A stretch of DNA of 63,315 nucleotides, the filler included, from Collodictyon triciliatum (Eukaryota), in the NCBI GenBank assembly GCA_043381765.1. It is 4 parts of 4 records of this genome, joined end to end, with 100 filler letters (N's around TTAATTAATTAA, not from the genome) between each part and the next. Parts side by side here need not be neighbours in the genome. Positions count along the whole stretch, not along the records: positions 25,052 to 49,977 come from JBHJMP010001063.1; 3 more parts are not named here. One strand, written 5' to 3'. A program made the position numbers and the translations under genes. Shown in pieces: positions 3,501-34,676 of the stretch. How positions within the stretch are numbered: the first letter of the stretch is position 1; every line of letters starts with the position of its first letter. A model generated the notes under the pieces. That model was given only the letters and a program-made list of their open reading frames with translations. It was not told where the DNA came from and searched no databases.

Positions 3501-4084
3501 ACAAGTGTGGTTGGCACGCCATATTGGATGGCGCCCGAGCTTGTCAGGGGCCAAGAATATGGAACTAAGGCAATATGTCCCTCAAGNNNNNNNNNNNNNN
3601 NNNNNNNNNNNNNNNNNNNNNNNNNNNNNNNNNNNNNNNNNNNNNNNNNNNNNNNNNNNNNNNNNNNNNNNNNNNNNNNNNNNNNNNNNNNNNNNNNNNN
3701 NNNNNNNNNNNNNNNNNNNNNNNNNNNNNNNNNNNNNNNNNNNNNNNNNNNNNNNNNNNNNNNNNNNNNNNNNNNNNNNNNNNNNNNNNNNNNNNNNNNN
3801 NNNNNNNNNNNNNNNNNNNNNNNNNNNNNNNNNNNNNNNNNNNNNNNNNNNNNNNNNNNNNNNNNNNNNNNNNNNNNNNNNNNNNNNNNNNNNNNNNNNN
3901 NNNNNNNNNNNNNNNNNNNNNNNNNNNNNNNNNNNNNNNNNNNNNNNNNNNNNNNNNNNNNNNNNNNNNNNNNNNNNNNNNNNNNNNNNNNNNNNNNNNN
4001 NNNNNNNNNNNNNNNNNNNNNNNNNNNNNNNNNNNNNNNNNNNNNNNNNNNNNNNNNNNNNNNNNNNNNNNNNNNGATGCCTGA
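560..4084 (+). CDS. PAK/STE20 family kinase (Pro-rich N-terminus, CRIB/PBD, kinase); last exons fall in an N gap
   Basis: Spliced exons give [33 protein letters not shown], then [42 protein letters not shown] and [12 protein letters not shown]. About 12 GT-AG introns plus one likely GC donor at 3570. The 3' end is tentative because of the gap at 3587-4075. Confidence 0.92.
3587..4075. other. Scaffold gap (N run)
   Basis: N run inside the PAK gene. Similar gaps lie at 32665-33066 and 59307-59794. Confidence 0.99.
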
Positions 4085-16200: not shown

Positions 16201-19200
16201 GCATTGGCCTTTGCCCTCAGCCTAGCCCAGAACCCGAGTGGCCCACTCATGGATCACACAGCTGTTGTTGATGCCTTCATGAGCTTCAAGCTTATTCAGG
16301 AGACCACCTCGTATCTTCTGGACGTCCTGAAGAACAACCGCCCCGAGGAAGGATTCCTTCAAACGCGCCTGTTGGAAATCAATCTCGTTGCTGCTCCCCA
16401 AGTCGCCGACGCCATCCTCAGTAACAGCATGTTCTCTCACTACGACCGCACTAAGATTGGTCAAATGTGCGAACGTGCAGGACTAACTCAGCGTGTATGT
16501 TTTTTTTTTTTTTAAAATTTTTTATAATTATCGTTTTTATCACGTCATACTTTTTTTTTTTGCTGTAGACATCTTACACCAAAAAGTATACTCATCTACG
16601 CGCAAATGTTCTAGGCTCTGGAGCACTATTCTGACATCCGTGACATCAAGCGTGTTATTGTCCAGACGCATAACCTGAACCCCGAGGTACGCACAAACAT
16701 GTTTCTGGCGAAGTACGGAATATGAGCACAATTCTGACTGTTTTTTTTTTTTGAAAAATAATAAACAGTTTTTGATCGGCTTCTTCGGAACCCTCTCTGT
16801 GGAGAACAGTTTGGAGTGTCTTAAGGAACTCCTTCAGGTCAACATCCGCATGAATCTCCAGGTGGTCGTCCAGATTACGACAAAGTACTCCGACCAGCTC
16901 ACACCCGAGGCTGTCATTCGCCTCTTCGAAGCCTTCAACTGCTTCGAGGGACTGTACTTTTACCTCGGCTCGATTGTCAACACCAGCCAGGATGCCGAAG
17001 TTCACTTCCGCTATATCCAAGCTGCTGCCAAGGTCGGGCAAATCAAGGAAGTCGAGCGCATCTGCCGAGAGAGCAGCGCCTTTGACCCCAAGCGTGTCAA
17101 GGACTTTTTGAAGCAGGCTCGTCTCCCTGACCAGCTCCCACTCATCATCGTCTGCGACCGCTTCGACATGGTCGATGACTTGACTGCCTATCTCTACGCG
17201 AACAACATGACAAAGTACATCGAAGTCTACGTCCAGCGTATCAACCCCCTTCGCACACCCGTTGTTGTCGGTGCCCTCCTTGACTCCGATGCCGGAGAAG
17301 ACCTAGTCCGCAACCTCACCATGTCTGTGCGCAATCTGTGCCCTGTCGAGCCGCTCGTCGCCGAGGTTGAGAAGCGTAATCGCCTGAAGCTTCTGCTCCC
17401 ATGGCTGGAGGCCCGCTCGGCCGAAGGGAACATGGAGCCAGCCACTCACAACGCTCTGGCCAAAATCTACGTCGACTCTGGGACGAACGTCGAGAACTTC
17501 CTCCAGACTAACCAGTTCTATGACAGCCGCTCCGTTGGTGCCTACTGCGAGAAGCGTGATCCCCATCTTGCTTATCTTGCATATAAGCGCGGCCGATGTG
17601 ACCCCGAGCTGATTGACGTCACCAACCGCCATGGACTCTTCAAGAATCAGGCCCGCTACCTCGTCTCCCGCCAGGACCTTGAGCTCTGGGCTACTGTCCT
17701 CAACGAGGAAAACTCCTTCCGCCGCCAAGTGATCGATCAAGTTGTGCAAACTGCCCTCCCAGAATCCAAGAGTGCTGATGAGGTGTCTGTTGCTGTCAAG
17801 GCTTTCATGGATGCCGAGCTTCCCAATGAGCTCATCGAACTTCTCGAAAAGATTGTCTTTGAAAACTCAAACTTCAGTGACAACGTCACCCTTCAAAATC
17901 TTCTGATCATCACCGCCATCCGCGCTGACCAGAGCCGTGTCATGGATTACATTAACCGCCTCGACAAGTTCGAACACACCGAAATCGCAGAGATTTGCAA
18001 ACAGAGTGAACTCTTTGAGGTTTTATTTCATATCAGTGCTTTCCCCTTAATCAATATATGATTTTCTATTAATATATGCCTTCATACAGAAAGACATCTC
18101 GAACAAATAATCTTTAAGAAACATTCCTTTCGAATAGCAATCCTATGAATGTGAAAGCAATAGATTGCTTTTTATCATCTGCGCTCAATCATTCTATACA
18201 TTACTAACACGTTTTTTTCCCTCTGTCAACTACAGGAAGCTTTCACCATCTACAAGAAGTTCAAACTCAACCTTTTGGCTGTCGATGTTCTCATCGCAAA
18301 CATCTGCAATCTGGAGCGTGCTCTTGAGTTTGTCTCTCGCTTGGATGACCCCGAATGCTGGAGCAAACTCGCCCGCGCTCAGCTGGATAATAACTTTGTC
18401 ACTGAGGCCATCAGTACGTATCATCCTCATCGGATTGAGTTATAAATATCATCCCTCAATTTTACCTCGCACATGTACTATTTTATTCGACCACCAAAAC
18501 AGCATGTTGTAACAAAAAAATGTAACAGAACGAAAAGTTTTTTAAAATTACCCATATTGCTTTTTTTTTTTTAAGCTTCTTACATGAAGGCGAATGACGC
18601 GACCGATTTCCGCGTAAGAAATCCTGCATAGCTGCATGCATAATTCCCATATTCTTGCGCAAATGGCACTGATACACCTATTACATACAGGCTGTCACTG
18701 TTGCTGCAGAGCGCGAAGAGAAGTTCCTCGACCTGGTTAAGTTCCTCCAAATGGCCCGCAAGAAGATTAAGGATGGTTACATTGAAACCGAGCTCATCTA
18801 TGCCTTTGCCAAGACCAACGAGCTTGCTGAGCTCGAAGAGTTCATCTCCGGACCCAATATCGCTGAGGTTTACTCCTCACACCATTGTTTCATTCCCTGT
18901 TATTCGCTCTTGCAATAGAGTGGCTTCGTTCATTTTATGGGATAAAGGAAGTTTGCCCAGCCAACACCATTGTCTTTCTAGACTAACAATAATTGTAATG
19001 CTTAAGATTCAAGGCGTTGGTGACCGCTGCTTCGATGAAGGGTTGTATGAAGCCGCTAAACTCCTCTACACCAATATTTCGAACCACGGCCGCCTTGCCT
19101 CAGCTCTCGTGAAGCTGAACCAGTATGCTGCTGCTGTTGAGGCTGCACGCAAGGCCAACAGTGTCAGGTTTATATCCCTACATTTTCAATTCTTAACTCT

Positions 19201-22020: not shown

Positions 22021-24200
22021 TCACAGCCGCGAGATTGCGAAGCAGGGCCGGCGTGGGAGAGCATGGTGACAACCACAGCGGCATTCACGAGGAGGACAAA
22101 GAGGTGGAGGAAGAAGCCAGGGGAACGGGGATTGCGGCGAGGGCAGCCATGGACCAATGGTGGACGTGCGGGAGGTCGGCATCCGGAGGGCAGGTTCCAT
22201 GCGGACCAGTTGCACAGGAAGGGCGAGTACTGCCGTCGCACTCGAATCCTTTCGGGCATCCAAGGCACTTTTCTGTGCCTCCATTCAGGTGGTGGCTGGC
22301 TGACAGGCAGATGCAGTTGCGAATGTTCGCCGACCCTGTAATGTTGGTCACAGAGTCGCTAGGGCATTCCATGCAGGACGGCTTGCCCTATTCTGCGTTG
22401 TAGCTGGTGGAGGAGCACCTGAAACATCCCTGTCAGATTTCATAATATCCTGGTTTGCATTCACATTACTTCCTGTCGTCGATTAAATCATAACCAGCTT
22501 TACATTGTCACTCTTTTGCGTCTTGGGCGCCCGCCATCCTGGTGGTGTATTTAGGGTCGCAAGGCGAACATAACCCAGTCCCGTTGGTGGCCTTGTAGGC
22601 GCCATACTTGGAAAGGCTGCATTCATCCCCTTCTTCATACTGGGCGGGAAGGCATATGCACTCATGCCCATCCAAAACGTACCCGCGCTTGCAAATGCAT
22701 TCTGAAATATCCTTCAACCCTTCAAACCTTGTCGTAAATCTTGTCGGGCAGCTCGTACATAACTTACTTCTGTCGGTGCTGTGCGTCTCTTTGGTACATG
22801 AAATACATGATGACTCTCCAAAATGAACCTTCGCCCCATTATACATCCCAGACGCGCAATCTTTACAACTCACTCTTTTCTCACCACCAAAAGTCCCCCT
22901 TGGACACAGGAAGCGTGCTGATTCCCTGAACCCGCCTTCATTTGATATATACGTGACTCGGGGACATATTGCACAGTTTGTTTGTCCTTCTCTTCCATCG
23001 TAATAGCCTCGTTGGCACGCACGACACATGGATACCTTAATCTCTGACAAAAAATACCCCACTGGATAAGTCTTACAACTCCTTTCACTGTCAGAAGCAA
23101 CCAAAGGACTAAAGGTTCCAGCCGCACATTCCTCACAAAAAAATAGCTTTATCGTGCCTAGAAAAGTTCCGGGCGCACACAGAGAAGAATACGCCAACCT
23201 CGTATCATTTGAATAATACCCAAAGCGACATTCATAACATTGATATTGACCTCGAGCTCCATTTTAGCTTCCTTGTGTACACTTAATTCATAAAGGTGCA
23301 TCGAATGACCTATAGTTTGGATTTAAGCTTCCAACAGGGCACGAGTCACAGACAGTTATTCCATATGTGTCACTAAAAGTCCCAGGATTGCATTCAAAAC
23401 ATGGCATGAGCCAGTTCGCAGACCGTGCCATCATGTTATATGTGCCCGGCACACACTCTCTACAAGACGATTGACCATAAGAGGGGTTGAAAGTCCCTGG
23501 CCCACATGATTGACAATCTTCCGCACTACTGGACCCAATCTTATTATTAAATGTTCCAGGTGGAGATTTTATATATTTACGTTGGTCGTTGACATTTGAA
23601 TAAGCCCCACTAGGGGATATGACACATGTATTGTACAAGCCATCATAATAATGTTCCTGATCACAAAACAGTCAAATAGATATAGCGTTATCAGTAGAAC
23701 CAGATATAATTTTCTCCCATTCGAGGCCATTCTTACAGTGATTGTATTCAATAAATTCTCCCAAAGGTTTCATATAACTTGTCCGGTGTTGATACCATTC
23801 ACTGAAATACCTTTATTTGCAACTTCGGCAACAATATATACCCCATTCGAGAAAACAATTAAACTTGTAATGGGAGAATATTTTTTTTTAATCGTTCTCA
23901 CCCGAAATCAAATTCCCATCTTCCATATAATTACGCTTCTCATAAAACCTTCCACCAGAAATAATCTTTGAATTATCAGGAGTCACAGCAACAGCTGAAA
24001 CAAGGTCTATGTGACATAAAAGAGTCGCTAATATTACTCCACCCAACACCGACCAAACTTTATCAATGAAATCACTGCCCAGGCTACAGGCCAAACCGCA
24101 GGATGCAATTCCTGATTACCGACTACTTCTCCGCCACCCGGTCACCAAGTAGCGCCCATGCAAATGATGGCCAGTGAATCAAAACCAACATCTTCACCAT
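22021..24200 (-). pseudogene. Decayed WD40 + Cys-rich (CxxCxxGx[FY], GCC2/GCC3 / ephrin-receptor-like repeat) surface protein
   Basis: WD40 remnants (GSDFIDKVWSV...HIDLVSAVAVTPDNSKIISG; EKIISGSTDNAISI*) are followed by many CQSCGPGTF / CRECVPGTY repeats. There are seven in-frame stops, many lost Cys codons, and frameshifts in the WD40 part and at the 3' end. Confidence 0.82.
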
Positions 24201-24497: not shown

Positions 24498-24849
24498 TCA
24501 AGCCAGGAGAGCATTGTCTCGCAGTTTGGAGAAGAGCAGGGCTTGATTCTCAGGAGACAGAGAGATGATTTGGTTCACGAGCTTATCCACGATAAATCTA
24601 TGTTACATTCAATCGTCAGTGGGCGTATATATCACAAATAAGTGTCTGTACTTGCTAAGAAAGGAGACATGGCTATAGAATCATCTGAAGCGTTGAGACA
24701 TGTAAGCGGGTTGCAGCGCAAAGAGCCTCCTCATACCGTTTGCTGGCAATAAAAGACGAGAAGTAAACATAGGTGAACAGTCCCATGAGGAGTTGGCAAT
24801 CCATTCGATCTGTGATTCCGCCGTGGCCAGGAATACTTTCTCCGAAATC
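24498..24849 (-). CDS. CDS1: Phosphatidate cytidylyltransferase (CDP-diacylglycerol synthase), last two exons only
   Basis: [19 protein letters not shown] is the family signature. It splices to [33 protein letters not shown]. The 5' part is cut off by the spacer at 24952. Confidence 0.93.
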
Positions 24850-24853
24850 CTGG

Positions 24854-24951
24854 CAAAACAAAACAAAACAAAACAAAACAAAACAAAACAAAACAAAACA
24901 AAACAAAACAAAACAAAACAAAACAAAACAAAACAAAACAAAACAAAACAA
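24854..24951. repeat. (AAAAC)n intronic microsatellite at a contig end
   Basis: Visible directly. Confidence 0.95.
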
Positions 24952-25051
24952 NNNNNNNNNNNNNNNNNNNNNNNNNNNNNNNNNNNNNNNNNNNNTTAAT
25001 TAATTAANNNNNNNNNNNNNNNNNNNNNNNNNNNNNNNNNNNNNNNNNNNN
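24952..25051. other. Artificial contig spacer N44-TTAATTAATTAA-N44
   Basis: Exactly 100 nt with an all-frame stop linker. Genes are truncated on both sides. Confidence 0.95.
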
Positions 25052-28000
25052 GACGAGGCCACGCTTTTGGAAGAGTTGCAAAAAATCACCGGGGTCGCCA
25101 ACATTGCTGCTTTACGAAAAAGCACGTCACTTTATATTTCTTCCAAAAATCTGGTGTATGTTCCTCTCGGTGTATTCTTGTTGGATCTGTTGAAAACTTT
25201 GTCCGTTTTTTCCAACAAGCTTTCGTCGCTGCCACCAGAAATATCGCGCTTGACCTGTCTCGTAGATTTTCAAGTTTCTTTCAACAAGCTGTCGACACTA
25301 CCACAGGAAATATTTCATTTGACTGGTCTCTTAGAAATTGATGCTTCTTATAATGAGCTTTCATCTCTGCCCTCAGAGATATCACACTTAAATTATCTCA
25401 TGGCACTTAATATCTCTTCAAACAAGCTTTCGTCGCTGCCACCAGAAATATCGTGCTTTACTCGTATCACACGCCTGGAAATGTGCAACAATCAGGTTTT
25501 TATTTAAATTAAACTTTACTTATACTCATACTTATGAATCACTAAAGAAAAGGATAAACTCTTTATTTAACATATAGATCGAAGAGCTTCCACCACAAAC
25601 TACAGCTCTTGTAAGTCTGAGGGAACTCTCCATCAAAGGTGGCTACAATACACAAACTATAAAAAGAGCACCTCGTGGAATTACAAATCTTCCATTATGG
25701 GATAACACAACCCACAAGGACCATTCATGCATACTCACTCTGGAGCTTTACGAAGTTCCGGTATATCTCCATTATGCTTCTAATGATATGTAAATGAATA
25801 TAAACGTCTTTTCGCCCAAAGCCATTGAAAATGATACATTAGGAGGATGATATGATGATGATGGAATGGATTGCAGATGCGAAGGAGATACGCTTCCAAT
25901 CGCTCAATTTTTACGGCATGGGCATCTCCATTCTACCCAAAAACTTATCACAGTTGACGAACATCACATATCTCAACATCAGCTGCAATAAGGTATAGCC
26001 ATCTATCTTTGAATCGAATAAAGAAAAAAAAAGGTATAACCATTTATAAAGCCCCTATTCCGAGAACAGTAATTTGATTGAAAAGAAAAGAGAGCATAAC
26101 AATTCACCAAGTATCCTTGGCTTCGTATATGAGTTCATAGTCATCCCTCTTGTGCCAATTCATGATTTTTTCGTATGACTGTACAGTTTTCCTCGCTACC
26201 CGACCTACGAGCAATGAAGAATCTGAGAAAGTTGGATGTGAGACAAAACGCATTCCCACCTCATATTCAACAATTTTTAGACTCTATTGACCTGGTCAAT
26301 AGCGAGGAAATCAGCATAACAGGCCGTGAAATTAAACAAGTACCAGAAGAGATGCTTCTCTTGCCCATCAAACCAAAGCGACTCAACATTTCCGAAAATT
26401 ATGTTCGTACTACATTTTGCATTTCTTTTACAAAAGAAGAGTTCTATCCTTGTCCTATCTAATGGATAATTATCGACACCCATTCTAATTGATGTTTAAA
26501 AAAACGTTAGATATCGTCGCTTCCTACAAACGTGTCGCACCTATCTAGCATCACATATCTCAACATCAGCCGCAATAAGGTATTCAACGACTCGAAGGAA
26601 TCCCATATTTGGAACAAAGTTAACTCTTTCAATACTCAGAATTTTAGATAACATACATGTACGTTATTATAGTTCAACCTATTTCCCGCATCTATATGCA
26701 CATTGACTCTAATCGAGTCTCTCAATATTTCAAACAACCAGGTTTCTTTAGAACTTTTTTAAGTACATTGAACTGGAAATATTGTGTGCCATATATTGTT
26801 CCTCTTATTTGATTGTAGTCTAACATGTTATTTAAACCCAGATTTCGCAGATTCCGGATGCCATCGCAAATCTTGTCAATATCCACAGATTCGATATATC
26901 TAACAACCAGGTCTTTTTTTTATGTTTTAATATGTTTTTGACCTTCTCTTAAAAATATAATAAGAGTTTGCTCACCTGTTCGATGCATAGATTCAAAAAT
27001 TGCCCAGAATTATTGGAGCTTTAAAGAGCGTGCGAAGTGGGCTGATTGTGCAAGGAAATCCCATCAAGAATGTACAAGGAAATGTCATCCGAAATGGATC
27101 TGAAGCTGTATTTGATTTCCTAGCAAACTCTATGAGTGGGCTCGTACGATGGACTCAAGGGAGGCTCCTTTTACTTGGTGAAGGAGAAACCGGGAAAACC
27201 ACCCTCATCAAATCAATAACTCAAAAATTGGTCTCTTTCAAGAACACCACAGACCAGAAGCAAGAGCGAACCGATGGTATAGCGCATGTCGATATTGATG
27301 AATTAATCATGGATACACCCTCAAAAACTAAGATGGCCATACGAATCTGGGACTTTGGGGGACAGGAAGAGTTCCAAGTAACACACCCGTTCTTTTTGTC
27401 ATCAGGTGCTCTCGTTTTAATCCTTTACAGACTTGACAGAAACAAAAATGAGAACAACCTCGGACGCTGGGTCAAAATGCTTGACGACTTTGCGCCTGGT
27501 TCAAAAATTATAATTGCTGGGACTCACCAGGACAATCAGAATCCGACTTGCAAAAAAGAGATGCACAAAGAAATCGAACGAATAAAAAAGGATAACGCAC
27601 AGAAATTGGATGAAAAGGCTCAACACATCTTTATTCACACAAACTTGAGGGTTAGCAACAAAAGCGGTGAAAAAATCTCTGATTTGAAGGATGAAATATA
27701 CAAAGGAATGATGAGACTAGACAATATGAACAAGGACGTTCCAAAAACATATATTGGACTGAAAGACTATCTGGATTCAAAAAGCCAAATTTTAAAGTAT
27801 GAAAGAATCCAAGACACATACAGTTTTGCCGAGAAGCAGTTGGGAATGGACAGAAATGGATGTGAAAGTGCTCTCAAATTTCTTCACGACCTTGGCTCCA
27901 TCGTTTGGTATTCATCACTTGAAAGTGTCAAGGATATTATTTTTTTGGACCCGCTATTTCTCATCAACATTTTCCGCTGTGTTTTCAGCTTCAAAGGAAT

Positions 28001-31000
28001 CGGGAAGGGTACAAGCGGCATCATTTTGTTGAGTAAGCTAAAAGACCAAATCAAACAAGAACTGAAATCCGAATTAGATGAACAAGTGTTCAATACAATT
28101 TTCCGAATTTTTGACCATTTTGGCCTTGGTATTCAATTTAACAGAGAATGCATCGCCTTTCCCTCGCTAATGGAAGATTGTAGCAACCTAAGGGCGTTAT
28201 GGAATGAAAAAGCAGAGTCGAACTGTATTGCTGAAACCTCTGTAGAAATAATGACCAATGGTGAGGTCCAGCTCTCTGATAAAAGCAACGTCATCATACA
28301 AGCGCTTCGTTTAACAAAAGCGGGACAAACTGGAGTTCAGTATGAAGACCAATTTTTCAGAGATATAGCGCTCATACACTTAAATGCTTCGTACAAAACA
28401 GGAACGGATGAAATTCAATTGGTTCCAGGAAATGGATTGATTATCTTGTACCAAATCCACCAAAGAAATATAAAAGTCAATATTAGGAGATATGAAAATG
28501 AGGTTGATGAAAGTGATACAATCGTCAGGATTTTTGACATTCTTTGCACCTTTATCAAACAAATATCATCAATTCGACCAAATTTTATTGAAGAGTATCG
28601 TTTTGAATGCCCTGAATGCCAGCGTCAAGGTTCAGATGGTTATATGCGAACTTCATTCAAGATAGAAAACTCAGAATTGAAAATATGTACAAAGAGCCAT
28701 CAACTGGAAGCGAGTGCAATAACGCAAGGGCGTGTCTATTTGGAGCAAGGTTTGTAAATAAGTGCATTAAAACTTGGTGTCACCAGAATGATAATGTACA
28801 AATTTGTATATGTATGTTATGTGCTACCATTGAAATATAACACATTGAATGTTTATTTTAGGAATTTCAAAGATATTTGCCTCTGTCATAAAAGGGAAAA
28901 GGAAAAGGAGGCCACAATCCGCTAAATCGATCTTTGAGCTGGATTCAATAAACAAAGAGCTGAAAGGTCAATGGATTGATGAAAAGATAGAGCTTTTGGA
29001 GTATCTCGCAAAGGGTTCATTTGGGCGTGTTTATACAACATCATTTCAAAAGGAAAAAAAAGCTGTGGTGAAAATCCAAACAATCAAAGAAATGGATACG
29101 CAGACCGTCAGCCAGGTGATTCAATCGCTTATTTATGAAAGCAAGTATCTGCATGAATGTAAGGAGTGTGAAAATATTGTCAAGTTGTTTGGTGTGTATC
29201 GCAAAGATGACGATTTCTTTATGGTTATGGAGAATGCAGGCTTTTCTCTGAAATCTATGTTGGAGAAGAAAGGTATTAAACCAACGTTATCTCAAGTAAT
29301 ATCTTACACGGAGCAACTGTGCAAGGGTCTCATCTTTATGCATTCTAAAAACCTCTACCATGAAGATTTGAAGGCTGACAACGTTATGATAATGGACGAA
29401 ACCATAAAAATTGTAGATTTTGGAATAATAAGCCATCGAAGCGTTGAGGAAGTTGGTTCAAACTTACCTACAAAGTATGGTGATAATAAAGGCGGAACTA
29501 CCAACTGGCAAGCACCAGAAATCCATGATATTGTTTCTACACCTCATTACGAAGACAACCCTGAAATTTATGGCGAATATGGGGTCAATGTGGGGCATCG
29601 AGGAGAACCAAGCAACGTGTATGCTTTGGGAATGCTCGTCTGGTACATGTTTTCTGGCATCGAGCCTTTTATGAATGAAAAAGAAACACAAGGATTTGTC
29701 ATCAGAGGCTTACGTCCTGAAATACCGAATGAAGCCACTCCGAAGGAGTTGAATCATCTTATCAAAGCATGTTGGAGGCAAAACTATAAGCTTCGACCAT
29801 CTCTGAGTCAAGTTTGTAAGTATATGGATGAATTGAAATCAAATGGGTCGAAGCTTTCTCGATTTGTGATGAACCATTTGCTTCCTATTAAATACGCTCC
29901 GTTGGCTGATATGTACCAGGGTGAATTTGTGGAGTGGCTTCGAGAGCATGGCTTTTCGAATTTGAGCGATAAGATTTCAAAGCAAACGACCTGGAAGAGA
30001 TTTGTCGAAATTCAAGACATGCTGATTGAAAGTAAGATGATTGAGACCTATCATATAACCCCGAATGACATAATTGCATTTTTGGGATTATCGAAAGAGG
30101 ACGATGCTGGCAGCAGTTCCAAAGTTTCGAAGAAAAAGGTTGAGGAATTATTTTATAACCCATTGGTAACCCATTTGCAGAAAAAGAAAGACGGATTGTC
30201 AAAAAGATTACTTGAAAAAGTGAAAGCCTTGCACCTTGATGGGAATATAATATCCAAGCTTGACAAACCAGATATCCGCGCGAACCACTCGGTTTCTGAA
30301 CAGGAACTTTCGTTTGTATCCCGATTCATAGAAAACCAGACGCAGCCAAATGATTCTGAACCTCCCAAACATGTATTAAGCACCAACATCCTTCAAGAAT
30401 TGGAAGAAAGTCAATTTATGAATTTGCGATACATCCCTTACAATCATGGAATCCAACACGCAACCACGTTGTGGATGGGTGATATGAAGCTCCCTCAGAT
30501 TCCGAATTCCCTCAGTCACTTTGTAGAATTGATGAGACTCTACCTCCATTCGAACGAAGTAGTTTTGATTCAATTATGTTTCAAAAGCTGGCGATTTTAT
30601 TCAGTTGTTAATTGCAGACTAACTCATGACCTGTTTACAGCTTACATCTTTCCCGAAGCCATGCCTTGCTCTCACAAAGTTAGTCTATCTGGACTTGTCA
30701 AAAAATAAGGTACATCACTCTTCTCTCTCCATTGTTTTCTATTTACCAATTTGTTTTAATATACATGTTCATCCTTATACGATGATGATAGCATTATAAT
30801 TTGCATTTTGTATTATTAGGCTTTAATTTTCATCAAACTACCACGTATTTTTCACCCATGCTCATTCATTTAACATCACTACATGTCCAAATTATGTCTG
30901 ATGGGCCTCATTCCATTCTGTACCACCGAAAACCAGCTATCGTCGCTGCCTCCAGAAATATCGAGCTTATCAATTCTCATGCACTTGGACATTCGAGATA

Positions 31001-31272
31001 ACCCGGTTTGTTTGGATTATAGATCAAAATTATTGGAGATTAGTCAGCGGTATTGACTGATTAGCGTTTCATCATTTCTGTAGATTAAAGAGCTTTCTGC
31101 CCAAATCACCTCTCTTGCTGCCCTCAGTTGTTTGCGTCTCCAGGGTGAAAGTGGACAATCAACCATAAAGGGGGCGCCCCGAGGTATCACCAACCTCCCA
31201 TGTTGCAAGAATCCGAGCGATCCAGATCACGAGTTCATTAGCAAACTGGAGTTCTACGACCACGTAACATGA
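25052..31272 (+). CDS. Roco family protein: LRR-Roc GTPase-COR-kinase-SAM-like x2-LRR (5' end truncated)
   Basis: LRR exons 25052-26910. Roc motifs GEGETGKTT, TDGI, WDFGGQ, GTHQD and VSNK. COR-like LKFLHDLGSIVWY...IFLDP. An intron at about 28750-28861 joins the kinase (LAKGSFGRVY, VVK, HEDLKADN, DFG, WQAPE). C-terminal LRR exons lie at 30641-30709, 30937-31005 and 31084-31272. Confidence 0.92.
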
Positions 31273-32016: not shown

Positions 32017-34676
32017 ATGGAGGAACCCAAGTGCACAGACGTCTTTGTGAGAATCCGCACAACCGACGGCCTCGAAACCCAAGTCGCCTGCAAGCCGCAC
32101 ACAGCGTAATGCCGCCAAAGCACACGAGCGTCTGCCCAGAAAAGCTCCACACACTCCTCTATTCCCCACTGCCCAAACTACATGTTCCCTCACCCGCGCT
32201 CACCGGCTTTGCTTTACTCTAGCCTGGGCCAAGTTCTTCAGACTTGGAGCCCAACGACAGGCACTTCCGGTCGCTCGTACAATGTCCTGCTGCGCGGCAA
32301 ACGTCTGTCGCTCGAGACAAAGGTCGCGGACCTTCTGCTGCGTTCGCACGGTATTCACAAACATCTGTCCACACATCCAACAAAGCCCGACTGACTCCCG
32401 ATGCTGACTGTGCCCGCGCTGCTCTATCTCGCTTGCAGAGTTTCTCACCGCGTGCCCCGTTCTTGCAAAGAAGCCCGTCTCCCCGGAATCCTTCCCACGC
32501 ATCACGCAGACGCTCATCAACGAGCAGACGCGCAATCTCGTCACCGAGCAGGAGGCTGAAAGCCCCAACGCCCTGGACCTCCTGCGCATCATAGCCGAGC
32601 TCGAAGAGAAGCAGCTTCTCCTCCTGCAGGCCAAGGAGCAAATCCGCCGCTTGTATGAAGCATCNNNNNNNNNNNNNNNNNNNNNNNNNNNNNNNNNNNN
32701 NNNNNNNNNNNNNNNNNNNNNNNNNNNNNNNNNNNNNNNNNNNNNNNNNNNNNNNNNNNNNNNNNNNNNNNNNNNNNNNNNNNNNNNNNNNNNNNNNNNN
32801 NNNNNNNNNNNNNNNNNNNNNNNNNNNNNNNNNNNNNNNNNNNNNNNNNNNNNNNNNNNNNNNNNNNNNNNNNNNNNNNNNNNNNNNNNNNNNNNNNNNN
32901 NNNNNNNNNNNNNNNNNNNNNNNNNNNNNNNNNNNNNNNNNNNNNNNNNNNNNNNNNNNNNNNNNNNNNNNNNNNNNNNNNNNNNNNNNNNNNNNNNNNN
33001 NNNNNNNNNNNNNNNNNNNNNNNNNNNNNNNNNNNNNNNNNNNNNNNNNNNNNNNNNNNNNNNNNNAATGCAAATGTGCCATACATAATATTTCTAAATG
33101 TAATCTATGAATTTACCATTGTCATGTAACCCGAGACAAACAAAGTTGTTTTTTCTCCCTTCTTTTCTTGAAGGCACTGGTTTGTGTCGCTTTTTTCTTC
33201 AATTTTGTCCTTATCAATATAAACATTTCCATTTGTAGGCTGAGTATACCAAAGGCTATAGAGCGGCTTCTCTCCTTTGGTGATGATGAATTATTCTCCA
33301 TTCCTTTCACAGAGGATGAATTGAGCCGACTGCGCGAATGCTTCTTGCGAATTGGCCCCATTCCATTTGTGAGTGTGAAAAATGGGCAATATATGAAAAA
33401 AAAAACACATTTTTTTTAGTCAAGAGATATCAGCAACCACAATCATCGGGGACGTAGCCTTGAAATTTTGTTTGCTTTTTATGCAACTCTTTTTTTTTTC
33501 TTTTTTTTTCCTAGCATGTTCATGTCTTGTCAAAGCTTGGGTATCCTGAGGTTGACTGTGTGGATGCACTGAGGACGACCCTTGGAGATTTCCACGCCGC
33601 CAGAAGAATATTACAACAGCGGGTATCTTCTGTTCATGTGATTTAGCAAGTGGCCTGTTTAAAGGGGGTTATGTCTCCTCGTGTGCTTACATATCAATGA
33701 ATAAATGTGTTTATTTCCTACAGTTTCTCTTTCGGATAATAACCAACATTTTTTTCATGAAAAAAACAATCACATGAAGACATTTTCATTATTATCACTA
33801 TCACAATTGACATCTTGTAATTCATTTTAAACTGAGCTATATACGAAGTTGGTGATGATTTGTTTTTTTTTGTTTTTTTTTTTGGAGGCCACATAATACA
33901 CCCCTGTGCAAACTGTAATTAATCTACTGTTCAGGGGGCTGAGTCCTATTCACACACCTCGAACTCTGAGGGGGTTTCAACAGCAACACAAACAACCAAC
34001 GATGATGGAGAGGAAGAGGAAGCTTCCAATCGAATCCCAAGTGCTCTTTCTATAGCCCAGGGTTTATTCTTGCGGCCAGATATTCAGCAAAGATTATGCG
34101 AAGATAGTGAATTCAGGGGTATGCTCTTTGTTCTCTTTCCTTTCTTTCTTTTTTTATTTTGTGCCAGTGTCTTTGTTTGTTGGATTGTTAATATATATCG
34201 TCTCTGATTGTTGCGCCGATGTCAGGAGAAGAATACAATCCAAGAGATAGCATATTTTTCTTTTCCTTTTCTATTATGGCCAGATTTCTCTCTTTGCATT
34301 GTTTGTGCCCCTGGGGTATACGCACAATTCTATTATCTAATATGCGTTGCGAATTCGGTTTATTCAAACAGGGGCACTGGAATCAATTGTTCTCGACCCG
34401 TCCAGATTACCCGAGCACATCCAACGCGTTTGTTTTCTATTATTATGATTATTATATTTTTTAAAAAAACTATTATTATTATATCATTATCATTAACAAG
34501 CTTGCGAGAGGGATATGCACAGAAGAAATAATCTCGAATGGAGCTGGAATGACCAGTTGGCTCCTGGTAACCACCTCCGACTCAATTTTCTTTCATCTTC
34601 TCAGAACCCGGCTGTTCGTGAGATTGTGCAGGAAATAATAGAAGCGTCAACAAGCCAGACAGAGCATCTTCCTTAG
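32017..34676 (+). CDS. UBL-UBA-UBA-STI1 protein, UBAC1/KPC2-like (internal N gap)
   Basis: Ubiquitin-like N-terminus (VFVRIRTTDG...VLLRGKRLSLETKVADL), UBA end SIPKAIERLL, UBA VLSKLGYPEVDCVDALRTTLGDFHAARRIL, and STI1-like LESIVLDPSRLPEHIQR|NPAVREIVQEI. Confidence 0.7.

What the first reader, a model, noticed from the sequence alone, without database searches (positions are those of the whole stretch)
25214..30968. Sub-repeat DNA patchwork among LRRs (gene-conversion-like tracts), including across splice sites
Seen: AACAAGCTTTCGTCGCTGCCACCAGAAATATCG is identical (33/33) at 25214-25246 and 25421-25453, 207 nt (3 x 69) apart, while the flanks differ. A third copy at 30937-30968 matches 29/32 from 5.7 kb away, on the far side of the kinase, and its intron acceptor AACCAG mirrors the exonic AACAAG. 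Separately, 25962-25996 and 26549-26583 match 34/35 and include the GTAT donor, although the first halves of those LRRs diverge. Inference: half-LRR segments were recently copied between repeats, reminiscent of template-copy LRR diversification. The AACCAG acceptor hints that introns arose at the N-Q/K|L proto-splice site.
Basis: partly seen in the sequence, partly recalled or inferred. Interest (0 to 1): 0.7.

Follow-up and report, generated by a model that had tools for sequence, protein, structure and literature searches.

The report
Shared DNA patches between LRR repeats
Two short DNA stretches are copied almost letter for letter between otherwise dissimilar leucine-rich repeats of a protist signalling-kinase gene pair, which is best explained by ordinary sequence exchange between repeats, as already known from plant and algal receptor genes.

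Summary
The 33-mer is exact at 25214 and 25421 and matches 30/33 at 30931. 25962-25996 and 26549-26583 match 34/35.

Amino-acid constraint plus codon bias cannot explain this. Codon use is weakly biased, and chance identity of all 11 codons is about 7e-7. Site-specific nulls give 1e-12 and 1e-10.

- The window is a chain of contigs joined by linkers.
- 25052-25793 looks like the 3' end of an upstream tandem paralogue, cut by a contig start.
- It is followed by a complete, expressed LRR-Roc-COR-kinase-LRR (ROCO) gene at 25852-31272.
- The "third copy" is therefore the positional counterpart in the paralogue.

Contigs from four public runs carry tract 1 in other LRR contexts. One DNA-like contig joins 25961 to 26549 in frame, inside tract 2.

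Best reading: non-allelic exchange (short-tract conversion or unequal recombination) within a multi-copy LRR family. The intron-origin idea (AACCAG) is at chance level. Nothing supports somatic, VLR-like diversification. This is a new member of a known kind, of moderate interest.

The parts
24952..25051 (.). Contig-joining linker (N44, TTAATTAATTAA, N44). The sequence to its right starts a new contig.
   Evidence: N runs; sequence. Identical linkers lie at 49978-50077 and 58998-59097.
25052..25495 (+). Open exon at the contig start. It looks like the C-terminal LRR region of an upstream paralogue ('A'). It holds four intronless 69-nt LRR units, u1 to u4, starting at 25214, 25283, 25352 and 25421.
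   Evidence: Pfam LRR_8 at 2e-11. Units in register. Colinear with the C-terminus of gene B.
25214..25246 (+). Tract 1, copy a (unit u1). It encodes NKLSSLPPEIS.
25421..25453 (+). Tract 1, copy b (unit u4), 33/33 identical to copy a.
   Evidence: Extends to 42/45.
25496..25577 (+). Predicted phase-0 intron of A (GT..AG), at the same position as intron 9 of B.
   Evidence: Inferred; no RNA contig listed.
25578..25793 (+). Last exon of A: final LRR plus a cap-like tail, with TAA stop at 25791-25793. An alternative reading uses a donor at 25761 and an acceptor at 25842, which would fuse A to B.
   Evidence: 47% amino-acid identity over 59 residues to the last exon of B. Alignment. The choice between two genes and one is not settled.
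25852..25992 (+). Gene B exon 1 (first ATG at 25852). Its tail is an LRR.
   Evidence: An X2 contig covers 25837-25961 with an in-frame 3-nt gap.
25962..25996 (+). Tract 2, copy a: the end of exon 1 (ITYLNISCNK) plus GTAT.
26187..26402 (+). Gene B exon 2 (three irregular LRRs).
   Evidence: Reading-frame continuity and GT..AG. Inferred.
26511..26579 (+). Gene B exon 3: one 69-nt LRR, phase 0.
   Evidence: The 3' junction 26579|26673 is seen in an X1 spliced contig.
26549..26583 (+). Tract 2, copy b, 34/35 identical to copy a. The single difference is non-synonymous (TGC against CGC).
26673..26741 (+). Gene B exon 4: one 69-nt LRR.
   Evidence: Both junctions are in X1 contig record 1.
26842..26910 (+). 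Gene B exon 5: one 69-nt LRR.
   Evidence: Both junctions are in X1 contig record 1.
26991..28749 (+). Gene B exon 6: last N-terminal LRR, Roc GTPase and COR-A.
   Evidence: Pfam Roc 2.1e-20 and COR-A 2e-11. Junction 28749|28862 is seen in X1 and X4 contigs.
28862..30558 (+). Gene B exon 7: protein kinase domain, a linker of about 230 residues, and the first C-terminal LRR.
   Evidence: Pfam Pkinase 1.1e-36.
30641..30709 (+). Gene B exon 8: one 69-nt LRR.
   Evidence: Inferred.
30931..30968 (+). Tract 1, copy c: the last 6 nt of intron 8 (AACCAG) plus the start of exon 9. It matches copies a and b at 30/33 and copy b at 35/39.
30937..31005 (+). Gene B exon 9: one 69-nt LRR (LSSLPPEIS...). It is the positional counterpart of unit u4 of A.
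31084..31272 (+). Gene B exon 10: last LRR plus cap-like tail, with TGA stop.

Best explanation
The tracts are footprints of non-allelic sequence exchange among the 69-nt LRR units of a multi-copy family of ROCO-type (LRR-Roc-COR-kinase-LRR) genes in an unidentified protist. The exchange could be short-tract gene conversion, unequal recombination or template switching.

Shown:
- Gene B (25852-31272) is a complete 1448-codon gene with one LRR per 69-nt phase-0 exon, and it is expressed and spliced.
- Two kinds of sub-unit tract are identical at synonymous sites between units whose other halves are as diverged as any two units. Tract 1 covers NKLSSLPPEIS, the first half of the unit. Tract 2 covers ITYLNISxNK, the second half.
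- The same tract 1 sits in a paralogue that is otherwise saturated at synonymous sites.
- Other samples hold tract 1 next to other variable halves.
- One DNA-like contig removes exactly the 587 nt (95 codons, in frame) between the two copies of tract 2.

Inferred:
- Repair or replication of one LRR unit uses another unit as template. This homogenises tens of nucleotides and, when resolved as a crossover or slippage, adds or removes whole units.
- The shared tracts then serve as the homology for the next exchange. Half-units are reshuffled while LRR number varies: four units in A where B has two, and four fewer N-terminal LRRs in the X2 variant.

The function of the protein (a GTPase-switched kinase with two LRR sensor arms) is inferred from its domains only.
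For: Exactness and position of the tracts.

Codon bias excluded. No Ser, Leu or Pro codon exceeds 0.33, and TCG is 0.17 of Ser codons although it is used 3 of 3 times in the tract. The product of homozygosities is about 7e-7.

Site-specific nulls: 1.2e-12, 2.6e-8 and 1.1e-10.

Synonymous contrast within A: 11/11 against 139/341, p = 6.8e-5.

Synonymous contrast between paralogues A and B. Inside the tract 8/11 same-amino-acid codons are identical, against 17/56 outside, p = 0.011. The equally conserved peptide APRGITNLP shares only 1 of 9 codons.

Both halves of the unit occur as tracts in different pairs. That fits exchange rather than one fixed functional element.

- An X1 contig carries the tract, then 33 other letters, then the tract again.
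- An X2 contig carries a 42-nt tract, then 27 other letters, then the tract again. Both therefore have a 69-nt period.
- Loose ends start or stop at 25213-25218 and 25254-25261 in all four runs.
- X2 contig record 6 covers 25837-25961 joined to 26549-26672. Its joint falls within 22 shared letters, and it still contains intron 3, so it is DNA-level.

Spliced contigs confirm 4 of the 9 predicted introns of gene B. The gene model gives an uninterrupted 4347-nt reading frame.
Against: The two exact copies lie in the first 400 nt of a contig. Tract 1 is multi-copy in the organism and about as long as common assembly k-mers, so the local order of units could be an assembly chimera. No listed contig spans 25214-25453 as the window has it (66 pieces were not shown).

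Only three copies of tract 1 and two of tract 2 are in the window, so donor, direction and age of any conversion cannot be inferred.

The flanks are so diverged (17/36) that classical homologous recombination would be inefficient. The actual enzymology is unknown.

The evidence from other samples comes from short contigs at 88% or more likeness, in metagenomes and small cDNA-like runs. Some may come from related organisms.

No related DNA was found in any searchable collection, so the family-wide claim rests alone.
Confidence: 0.66

Rival explanations
1. Assembly artefact. The start of the contig (25052 to about 25500) is a chimera threaded through a k-mer shared by several paralogous LRR genes. 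The two exact copies 207 nt apart would then not lie together in the genome.
For: The fragment starts at a contig boundary. Tract 1 occurs in many other contexts in four runs, and contigs break at its edges. The exact length of 33 nt is close to common k-mer sizes (my knowledge, not tested). No listed contig spans the window's arrangement.
Against: A chimera needs the shared tract to exist in several loci, so the mosaic at family level would remain. The reading frame and the 69-nt register are kept through all four units. Tract 2 and the third copy of tract 1 lie well inside the contig. Exons 4 to 7 of gene B match spliced contigs of independent runs at about 99-100%.
Confidence: 0.12
2. Selection on the nucleotide sequence itself keeps the tracts alike without any copying. 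Candidates are a small-RNA target site shared by the family, a splicing enhancer or an RNA structure.
For: Synonymous sites are conserved between paralogues that are otherwise saturated. In Ectocarpus, some repetitive LRR exons were predicted miRNA targets (table note in PMC3341825, a passage seen).
Against: The two tracts cover opposite halves of the LRR unit and differ in sequence. Units u2 and u3 encode nearly the same peptide with different codons: 3/9 and 6/8 same codons against u1. RNA folds of five tract regions are no more stable than shuffles, with z from -1.28 to +1.44. No antisense copy lies in the window. The in-frame deletion joint in X2 needs recombination anyway.
Confidence: 0.08
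3. Recent duplication of whole LRR units, followed by very fast divergence of only the other half under diversifying selection or targeted mutation.
For: LRR variable positions are classic targets of positive selection, as reported for brown-algal ROCO LRR exons (PMC3341825, passages seen). The second halves of u1 and u4 are slightly more alike than average (17/36 against 12.7 expected).
Against: There are 19 differences in 36 nt next to 0 in 33 nt. The only same-amino-acid codon in the second half also differs (ACC against ACT). In tract 2 the conserved half is the one that includes the beta-strand positions, which is the opposite polarity.
Confidence: 0.07
4. Programmed, possibly somatic, template-copy assembly of LRR modules that uses the shared tracts as anchors. 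This is VLR-like, or as hypothesised for brown-algal ROCO genes.
For: Short shared tracts flank variable segments. The same tract appears with several variable halves, and an LRR-number variant has its joint inside a tract. The hypothesis is in print for Ectocarpus (PMC3341825, passages seen).
Against: Gene B is a complete open gene, not an incomplete germline gene. Its spliced transcripts in two runs match the genome at about 99-100%. No array of orphan LRR cassettes lies in the 63 kb window. For brown algae, somatic recombinants have not been reported (PMC11378527, passage seen). The variants seen can be alleles or paralogues.
Confidence: 0.04
5. Chance, or amino-acid constraint plus codon bias.
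For: NKLSSLP(P/S)EI is a generic LRR consensus that also appears in unrelated database proteins.
Against: The probabilities range from 1e-12 to 7e-7.
Confidence: 0.01

Closest known systems
Brown-algal LRR-ROCO genes with LRR exon shuffling (Ectocarpus, Saccharina; PMC3341825 and PMC11378527, passages read)
   Same: A ROCO family gene with an LRR arm in which each LRR is one short symmetric exon. Intra- and intergenic recombination among LRR units has been traced, paralogues are clustered or tandem, and LRR number varies.
   Different: Here the exons are 69 nt in phase 0, cut after N-x. In brown algae they are 72 nt, given as phase 2 in PMC11378527, with other boundaries. Here a kinase follows COR and a second LRR arm closes the protein, whereas brown-algal ROCOs are described as simple LRR-ROC-COR. 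Here the exchanged pieces are half-units (33-45 nt), not whole exons, and one paralogue has intronless units. Sequence relatedness was not tested directly. The best Roc-COR relatives found are Diphylleia rotans transcripts at 31-35% identity.
Mosaic evolution of plant disease-resistance LRR genes by unequal crossing-over and gene conversion (for example Cf-4/9, RPP5 and the flax L locus; recalled, no paper read here)
   Same: Patchwork of short identical tracts among LRR units and paralogues. LRR-number variants with in-frame joints inside repeats.
   Different: A different protein family and kingdom. The plant cases were shown with many alleles and progeny, whereas here there are only three and two copies plus contigs from other samples.
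Lamprey variable lymphocyte receptors (listing and abstracts seen; mechanism partly recalled)
   Same: LRR modules joined through short stretches of shared sequence by a gene-conversion-like copying process.
   Different: VLR germline genes are incomplete and are assembled somatically from flanking cassettes with cytosine deaminases. Here the gene is complete and transcribed as encoded, no cassettes were seen, and nothing somatic is shown.
Concerted evolution of WD repeats in Podospora HNWD/NWD non-self recognition genes (PMC1805685 and PMC2873952: titles and abstract starts seen; details recalled)
   Same: Repeat units are kept nearly identical at DNA level by exchange within and between paralogues, while a few positions vary. 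Repeat number is unstable.
   Different: WD40 rather than LRR. There whole units are homogenised to high identity, whereas here only sub-unit tracts are.
Dictyostelium Roco kinases and metazoan LRRK1/2
   Same: LRR-Roc-COR-kinase domain order.
   Different: Only 21-26% identity over Roc-COR to the LRRK1 entries listed. No ankyrin or WD40 family was found in the pieces scanned. A C-terminal LRR arm replaces the WD40.

Membership tests
ROCO proteins | Roc GTPase domain directly followed by a COR domain | tested here: met
   Pfam Roc (PF08477) at 2.1e-20, residues 58-181, and COR-A (PF16095) at 2e-11, residues 251-377, both in exon 6.
ROCO proteins | LRRs N-terminal to Roc, and a kinase C-terminal to COR (LRRK or Dictyostelium Roco type) | tested here: met
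   LRR units in exons 1-6. Pkinase at 1.1e-36 in exon 7. The N-terminal LRR exons taken singly gave no Pfam hit (proteins 3 and 4), so their LRR nature rests on the motif register.
Metazoan LRRK1/LRRK2 | Ankyrin (and armadillo) repeats N-terminal, WD40 C-terminal, and close sequence relatedness | tested here: not met
   No Ank or WD40 family was found in the seven pieces scanned. The C-terminus is LRR plus a cap. LRRK1 entries align at 21-26% identity.
Brown-algal shuffling LRR-ROCO | One LRR per exon, with successive exons of equal length that are multiples of three | tested here: met
   Five 69-nt phase-0 exons (26511, 26673, 26842, 30641, 30937). Junctions around exons 4 and 5, and 3' of exon 3, are seen in spliced contigs.
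Brown-algal shuffling LRR-ROCO | 72-nt 'type I' exon (GxxPxxLxxxxxLxxLxLxxNxLx) and LRR-ROC-COR without a kinase | tested here: not met
   The exons are 69 nt and cut after N-x. A kinase domain is present. The defining features are taken from passages.
Brown-algal shuffling LRR-ROCO | Traceable recombination among LRR units within and between loci | tested here: met
   Tract statistics. X2 in-frame joint. It occurs at sub-exon rather than whole-exon scale.
Gene conversion tract (operational definition) | A run of identity, including synonymous sites, bounded by flanks at background divergence | tested here: met
   Tract 1 is 33/33 against 17/36 in the flank. Tract 2 is 34/35 against 21/38. Same codon at same amino acid is 11/11 and 9/9.
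Gene conversion tract (operational definition) | Non-reciprocal transfer with an identifiable donor, or phylogenetic incongruence across many copies | not testable with these tools
   Only two or three copies are in the window, and no whole genome is held.
VLR-type somatic LRR assembly | Incomplete germline gene flanked by donor LRR cassettes | tested here: not met
   Gene B is an uninterrupted 1448-codon gene. No further tract copies or orphan LRR cassettes lie in the window, apart from one unrelated LRR reading frame at 51179-51916.
VLR-type somatic LRR assembly | Somatic variants within one individual or clone, and a dedicated deaminase | not testable with these tools
   Only contigs of public runs were available. 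There is no clonal read data and no genome.

The most novel reading that the evidence does not exclude
The segment of about 42-49 nt shared by many LRR units of this protist's ROCO/LRR family (25213 to about 25261) is a dedicated recombination anchor. Through it, variable half-LRRs are swapped at high rate, possibly within clonal lineages. A unicellular eukaryote would then have a diversifying receptor repertoire, functionally parallel to lamprey VLRs and to what was proposed, but never shown, for brown algae. The in-frame LRR-number variant with its joint inside tract 2 would be one such event caught in another sample.
Probability: 0.05. Interest if true: 0.85.

Novelty: new member of a known kind. 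Interest (0 to 1): 0.38.

Why it matters
LRR receptor families in plants, animals and brown algae diversify by exchange among repeats. This would be a further, independent example in a poorly sampled protist lineage, whose nearest Roc-COR relatives are 31-35% identical. It occurs in a ROCO kinase with two LRR arms, and at half-repeat resolution.

It also gives a concrete, PCR-testable LRR-number polymorphism. Practically, it flags that LRR arrays of this family are hard to assemble, so unit order near contig ends should not be trusted without long reads.

It does not by itself reveal a new mechanism.

Tried and rejected
- **External DNA copies of the tract:** 0 matches in metagenome contigs, genome contigs and viral contigs.
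- **Relatives of the Roc-COR exon in metagenome contigs:** 190 pattern matches, none confirmed.
- **Earlier notes of this scan:** nothing by place, sequence or words.
- **Protein database with the LRR fragment:** 35 hits at E <= 1e-5 among 343 candidates. The best are 47-50% identical, and none comes from the same family at high identity.
- **Sequencing runs:** no listed holder is on record as RNA, and all six rows hold small shares of 0.11 or less. Only contigs could be laid, so start, depth and assembly collapse could not be judged. Parts without cover (for example 26097-26514 and 30695-30903) say nothing.
- **Intron 8 as a decayed LRR unit.** I considered that its 3' part might be a decayed unit, which would explain AACCAG. 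A permissive alignment and an in-frame LRR-like reading of its last 13 codons (by eye) suggested this. With stricter scoring, intron 8 has no more similarity to LRR exons than shuffles do (z = 0.9, 37 of 200 shuffles as good). Rejected.
- **Intron 7:** it scored z = 3.8 (2 of 200). It is one of 11 introns tested, so I treat this as unproven.
- **RNA structure over the tracts:** none beyond shuffles.
- **One gene or two (A and B):** not settled. An 82-nt phase-0 GT..AG intron at 25761-25842 is possible, and no contig listed covers it.

Full report
**1. What is at the coordinates**

The 33-mer AACAAGCTTTCGTCGCTGCCACCAGAAATATCG is exact at 25214-25246 and at 25421-25453, 207 nt apart. It has 3 mismatches at 30931-30963. 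None of 100 shuffles gave a match. BLASTN extends the exact pair to 42/45 and the third copy to 35/39. 25962-25996 and 26549-26583 match 34/35, while the 38 nt before them match 21/38.

**2. The setting**

The window is not one molecule. Three identical linkers (44 N, TTAATTAATTAA, 44 N) lie at 24952-25051, 49978-50077 and 58998-59097. The finding lies in a contig that starts at 25052.

From 25852 to 31272 there is a ten-exon gene (B). Its joined exons give an uninterrupted 4347-nt reading frame. Pfam finds Roc (2.1e-20) and COR-A (2e-11) in exon 6 and a protein kinase (1.1e-36) in exon 7. LRRs lie on both sides. Five of them are single 69-nt phase-0 exons cut after the N-x of the LRR motif.

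Contigs of two small runs (X1, X4; labelled 'RNA?', a guess) skip exactly four of the predicted introns: 26579|26673, 26741|26842, 26910|26991 and 28749|28862. They match the exons at about 99-100%. Some of their loose ends look like a template-switch cDNA adapter (recalled). I therefore treat gene B as expressed and these junctions as shown. The other five junctions are inferred.

The stretch 25052-25793 (A) holds the two exact copies. It is open from the first base of the contig and carries four intronless 69-nt LRR units, one intron and a last exon with a stop at 25791-25793. It is colinear with the C-terminal end of B:
- the same order of first LRR, middle LRRs, penultimate LRR, intron and cap-like last exon;
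- 47% amino-acid identity over 59 residues of the last exon;
- a stop within 11 codons of B's stop position.

The simplest reading is that A is the 3' end of an upstream tandem paralogue, cut off by the contig start. Only 58 nt separate A's stop from B's first ATG, and an 82-nt phase-0 GT..AG intron (25761-25842) could instead fuse them. This is not settled.

Either way, the 'third copy beyond the kinase' is the positional counterpart (B exon 9) of unit u4 of A. A has four units where B has two.

The organism is a eukaryote. A clathrin heavy-chain repeat ORF lies in the neighbouring contig. The nearest Roc-COR relatives in a database of 5.8 billion proteins are only 31-35% identical, and they are transcripts of Diphylleia rotans.

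**3. Is it more than constraint and codon bias?**

Yes. Codon use in B is weakly biased. Ser TCG is 0.17 and the commonest Leu codon is 0.28. The product of codon homozygosities for the 11 tract codons is about 7e-7.

A null built site by site from 75 other unit pairs absorbs both amino-acid constraint and any family codon habit. It gives 1.2e-12 for 33/33 and 2.6e-8 for at least 30/33. With only the 18 pairs among the most similar units it gives 3.7e-9 and 2.6e-5. For tract 2 the probability is 1.1e-10.

Units u2 and u3 encode almost the same peptide with other codons. Across all other pairs, same-amino-acid codons are identical in 139/341 cases in the first half and 65/201 in the second, against 11/11 and 9/9 in the tracts.

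Between A and B, 17/56 same-amino-acid codons are identical outside the tract, so synonymous sites are saturated. The invariant peptide APRGITNLP shares 1 of 9 codons. Inside the tract the figure is 8/11 (Fisher p = 0.011). The third copy is thus significant but much less striking than the exact pair.

**4. Evidence from other samples**

Many contigs of X1, X2, X3 and X4 (three studies) lie only on about 25213-25261 and then run on unlike the window.
- One X1 contig has the tract, 33 other letters, then the tract again.
- One X2 contig has 42 tract letters, 27 others, then the tract again.

Both therefore have a 69-nt period. By my eye, the intervening letters read in frame as LRR second halves. 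Loose ends cluster at 25213-25218 and 25254-25261 in all four runs. Tract 1 is thus a segment shared by many LRR units of a family, not a private copy between two units.

Separately, X2 contig record 6 covers 25837-25961 and then 26549-26672, with the joint anywhere within 22 shared letters of tract 2.
- The skipped 587 nt contain 285 coding nt, which is 95 codons, so the joint is in frame.
- The contig still contains intron 3, and no GT..AG fits the joint.

It is therefore a DNA-level variant with about four fewer LRRs, whether an allele, a paralogue or a relative. This is what unequal recombination at the tract would produce. These are short contigs at 88% or more likeness, and some may come from relatives. 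The listing was truncated: 66 pieces and 65 loose ends were not shown.

**5. Explanation**

The best-supported reading is non-allelic exchange among LRR units and paralogues. Short patches are copied (conversion or template switching), which keeps some tens of nucleotides identical. Occasional crossover or slippage at those patches changes unit number.

Both halves of the unit occur as tracts in different pairs. Tract 1 is the N-x-L-x-x-L-P-x-x-I half. Tract 2 is the x-L-x-L-x-x-N half that, from general LRR structural knowledge (recalled), forms the beta-strand face. This argues against a single fixed nucleotide element.

RNA folding gives no signal (z from -1.28 to +1.44), and there is no antisense copy in the window. 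Duplication followed by fast divergence of one half does not fit 0/33 against 19/36 differences.

The main caveat is assembly. The exact pair sits at a contig start, in a motif that is multi-copy. No raw reads could be examined, so the local order u1-u4 is unverified.

**6.

*Across splice sites.* Tract 2 enters the intron by GTAT only, and 3 of 11 donors start GTAT.

*AACCAG mirrors AACAAG.* With AG fixed, a 5/6 match has probability 0.064 for one intron and 0.52 for at least one of 11. The true upstream codons after splicing (AATAAG) match equally well. I also tested whether intron 8 hides a decayed LRR unit; it does not (z = 0.9).

*Template-copy diversification.* This is only an analogy. 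B is complete, transcribed as encoded, and no cassette array is seen.

**7. Comparison with what is known**

The closest described system is the brown-algal LRR-ROCO family. There each LRR is one 72-nt exon and intra- and intergenic recombination among LRR exons is traceable (PMC3341825). This was confirmed in four species, with the remark that somatic recombinants have not been found (PMC11378527). I read passages of both papers.

The present gene shares the ROCO core, the one-LRR-per-exon layout and traces of exchange. It differs in exon length and boundaries, in having a kinase and a second LRR arm, and in the sub-exon scale of the tracts.

Mosaic LRR evolution in plant resistance genes and concerted evolution of Podospora WD repeats are functional parallels. 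For these I rely on recall, or on titles and abstract starts only. A search for ROCO + 'gene conversion' + LRR returned 9 papers. None of the 8 listed, by title and abstract start, deals with a protist ROCO. I did not read them, so I claim no more than that.

**8. Verdict**

This is a new member of a known kind, of moderate interest.

Noticed in passing
24952-25051, 49978-50077, 58998-59097: Three identical linkers (44 N, TTAATTAATTAA, 44 N) show that the window is several contigs strung together. Features on either side of a linker are not neighbours in the genome. Plain N gaps lie at 3587-4075, 32665-33066 and 59307-59794.
   Followed up: partly
24845-24951: A (CAAAA)n microsatellite of about 21 units runs up to the end of the preceding contig.
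   Followed up: no
25791-25852: Only 58 nt separate the stop of the upstream fragment from the first ATG of the ROCO gene. An 82-nt phase-0 GT..AG intron (25761-25842) could fuse the two reading frames. One gene or two is undecided.
   Followed up: partly
25987-26004 and 26028-26045: Intron 1 of the ROCO gene contains a second copy (15/18) of the exon-end-plus-donor motif AAxAAGGTATAxCCAT, 41 nt downstream of the real donor (family D4). It could be a small duplication or an alternative donor.
   Followed up: no
27044-27091: A tandem 24-nt duplication (18/24) in exon 6 encodes VQGNPIKN followed by VQGNVIRN, just after the last N-terminal LRR (family D8).
   Followed up: no
30559-30640: Intron 7 aligns to the intronless LRR array of the upstream fragment better than 198 of 200 shuffles (z = 3.8). 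It is one of 11 introns tested, so this may be chance or a relic of an LRR.
   Followed up: no
26991-29150 (runs X1 and X4): Two small cDNA-like runs of one study, labelled as different organisms, both hold spliced contigs about 99-100% identical to this gene. The source organism, or a close relative, is present in both.
   Followed up: no
25881: The X2 contig lacks 3 nt here. This is an in-frame indel in exon 1, consistent with this stretch being coding (table 4).
   Followed up: no
51179-51916 (-), 16679-18061 (+), 22508-23263 (-): Other contigs of the window carry an unrelated LRR reading frame (LRR_8, 4e-7), clathrin heavy-chain repeats (4e-83) and an ephrin-receptor-like cysteine-rich domain (5e-21). 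G+C content ranges from 0.26 to 0.56 along the window.
   Followed up: partly
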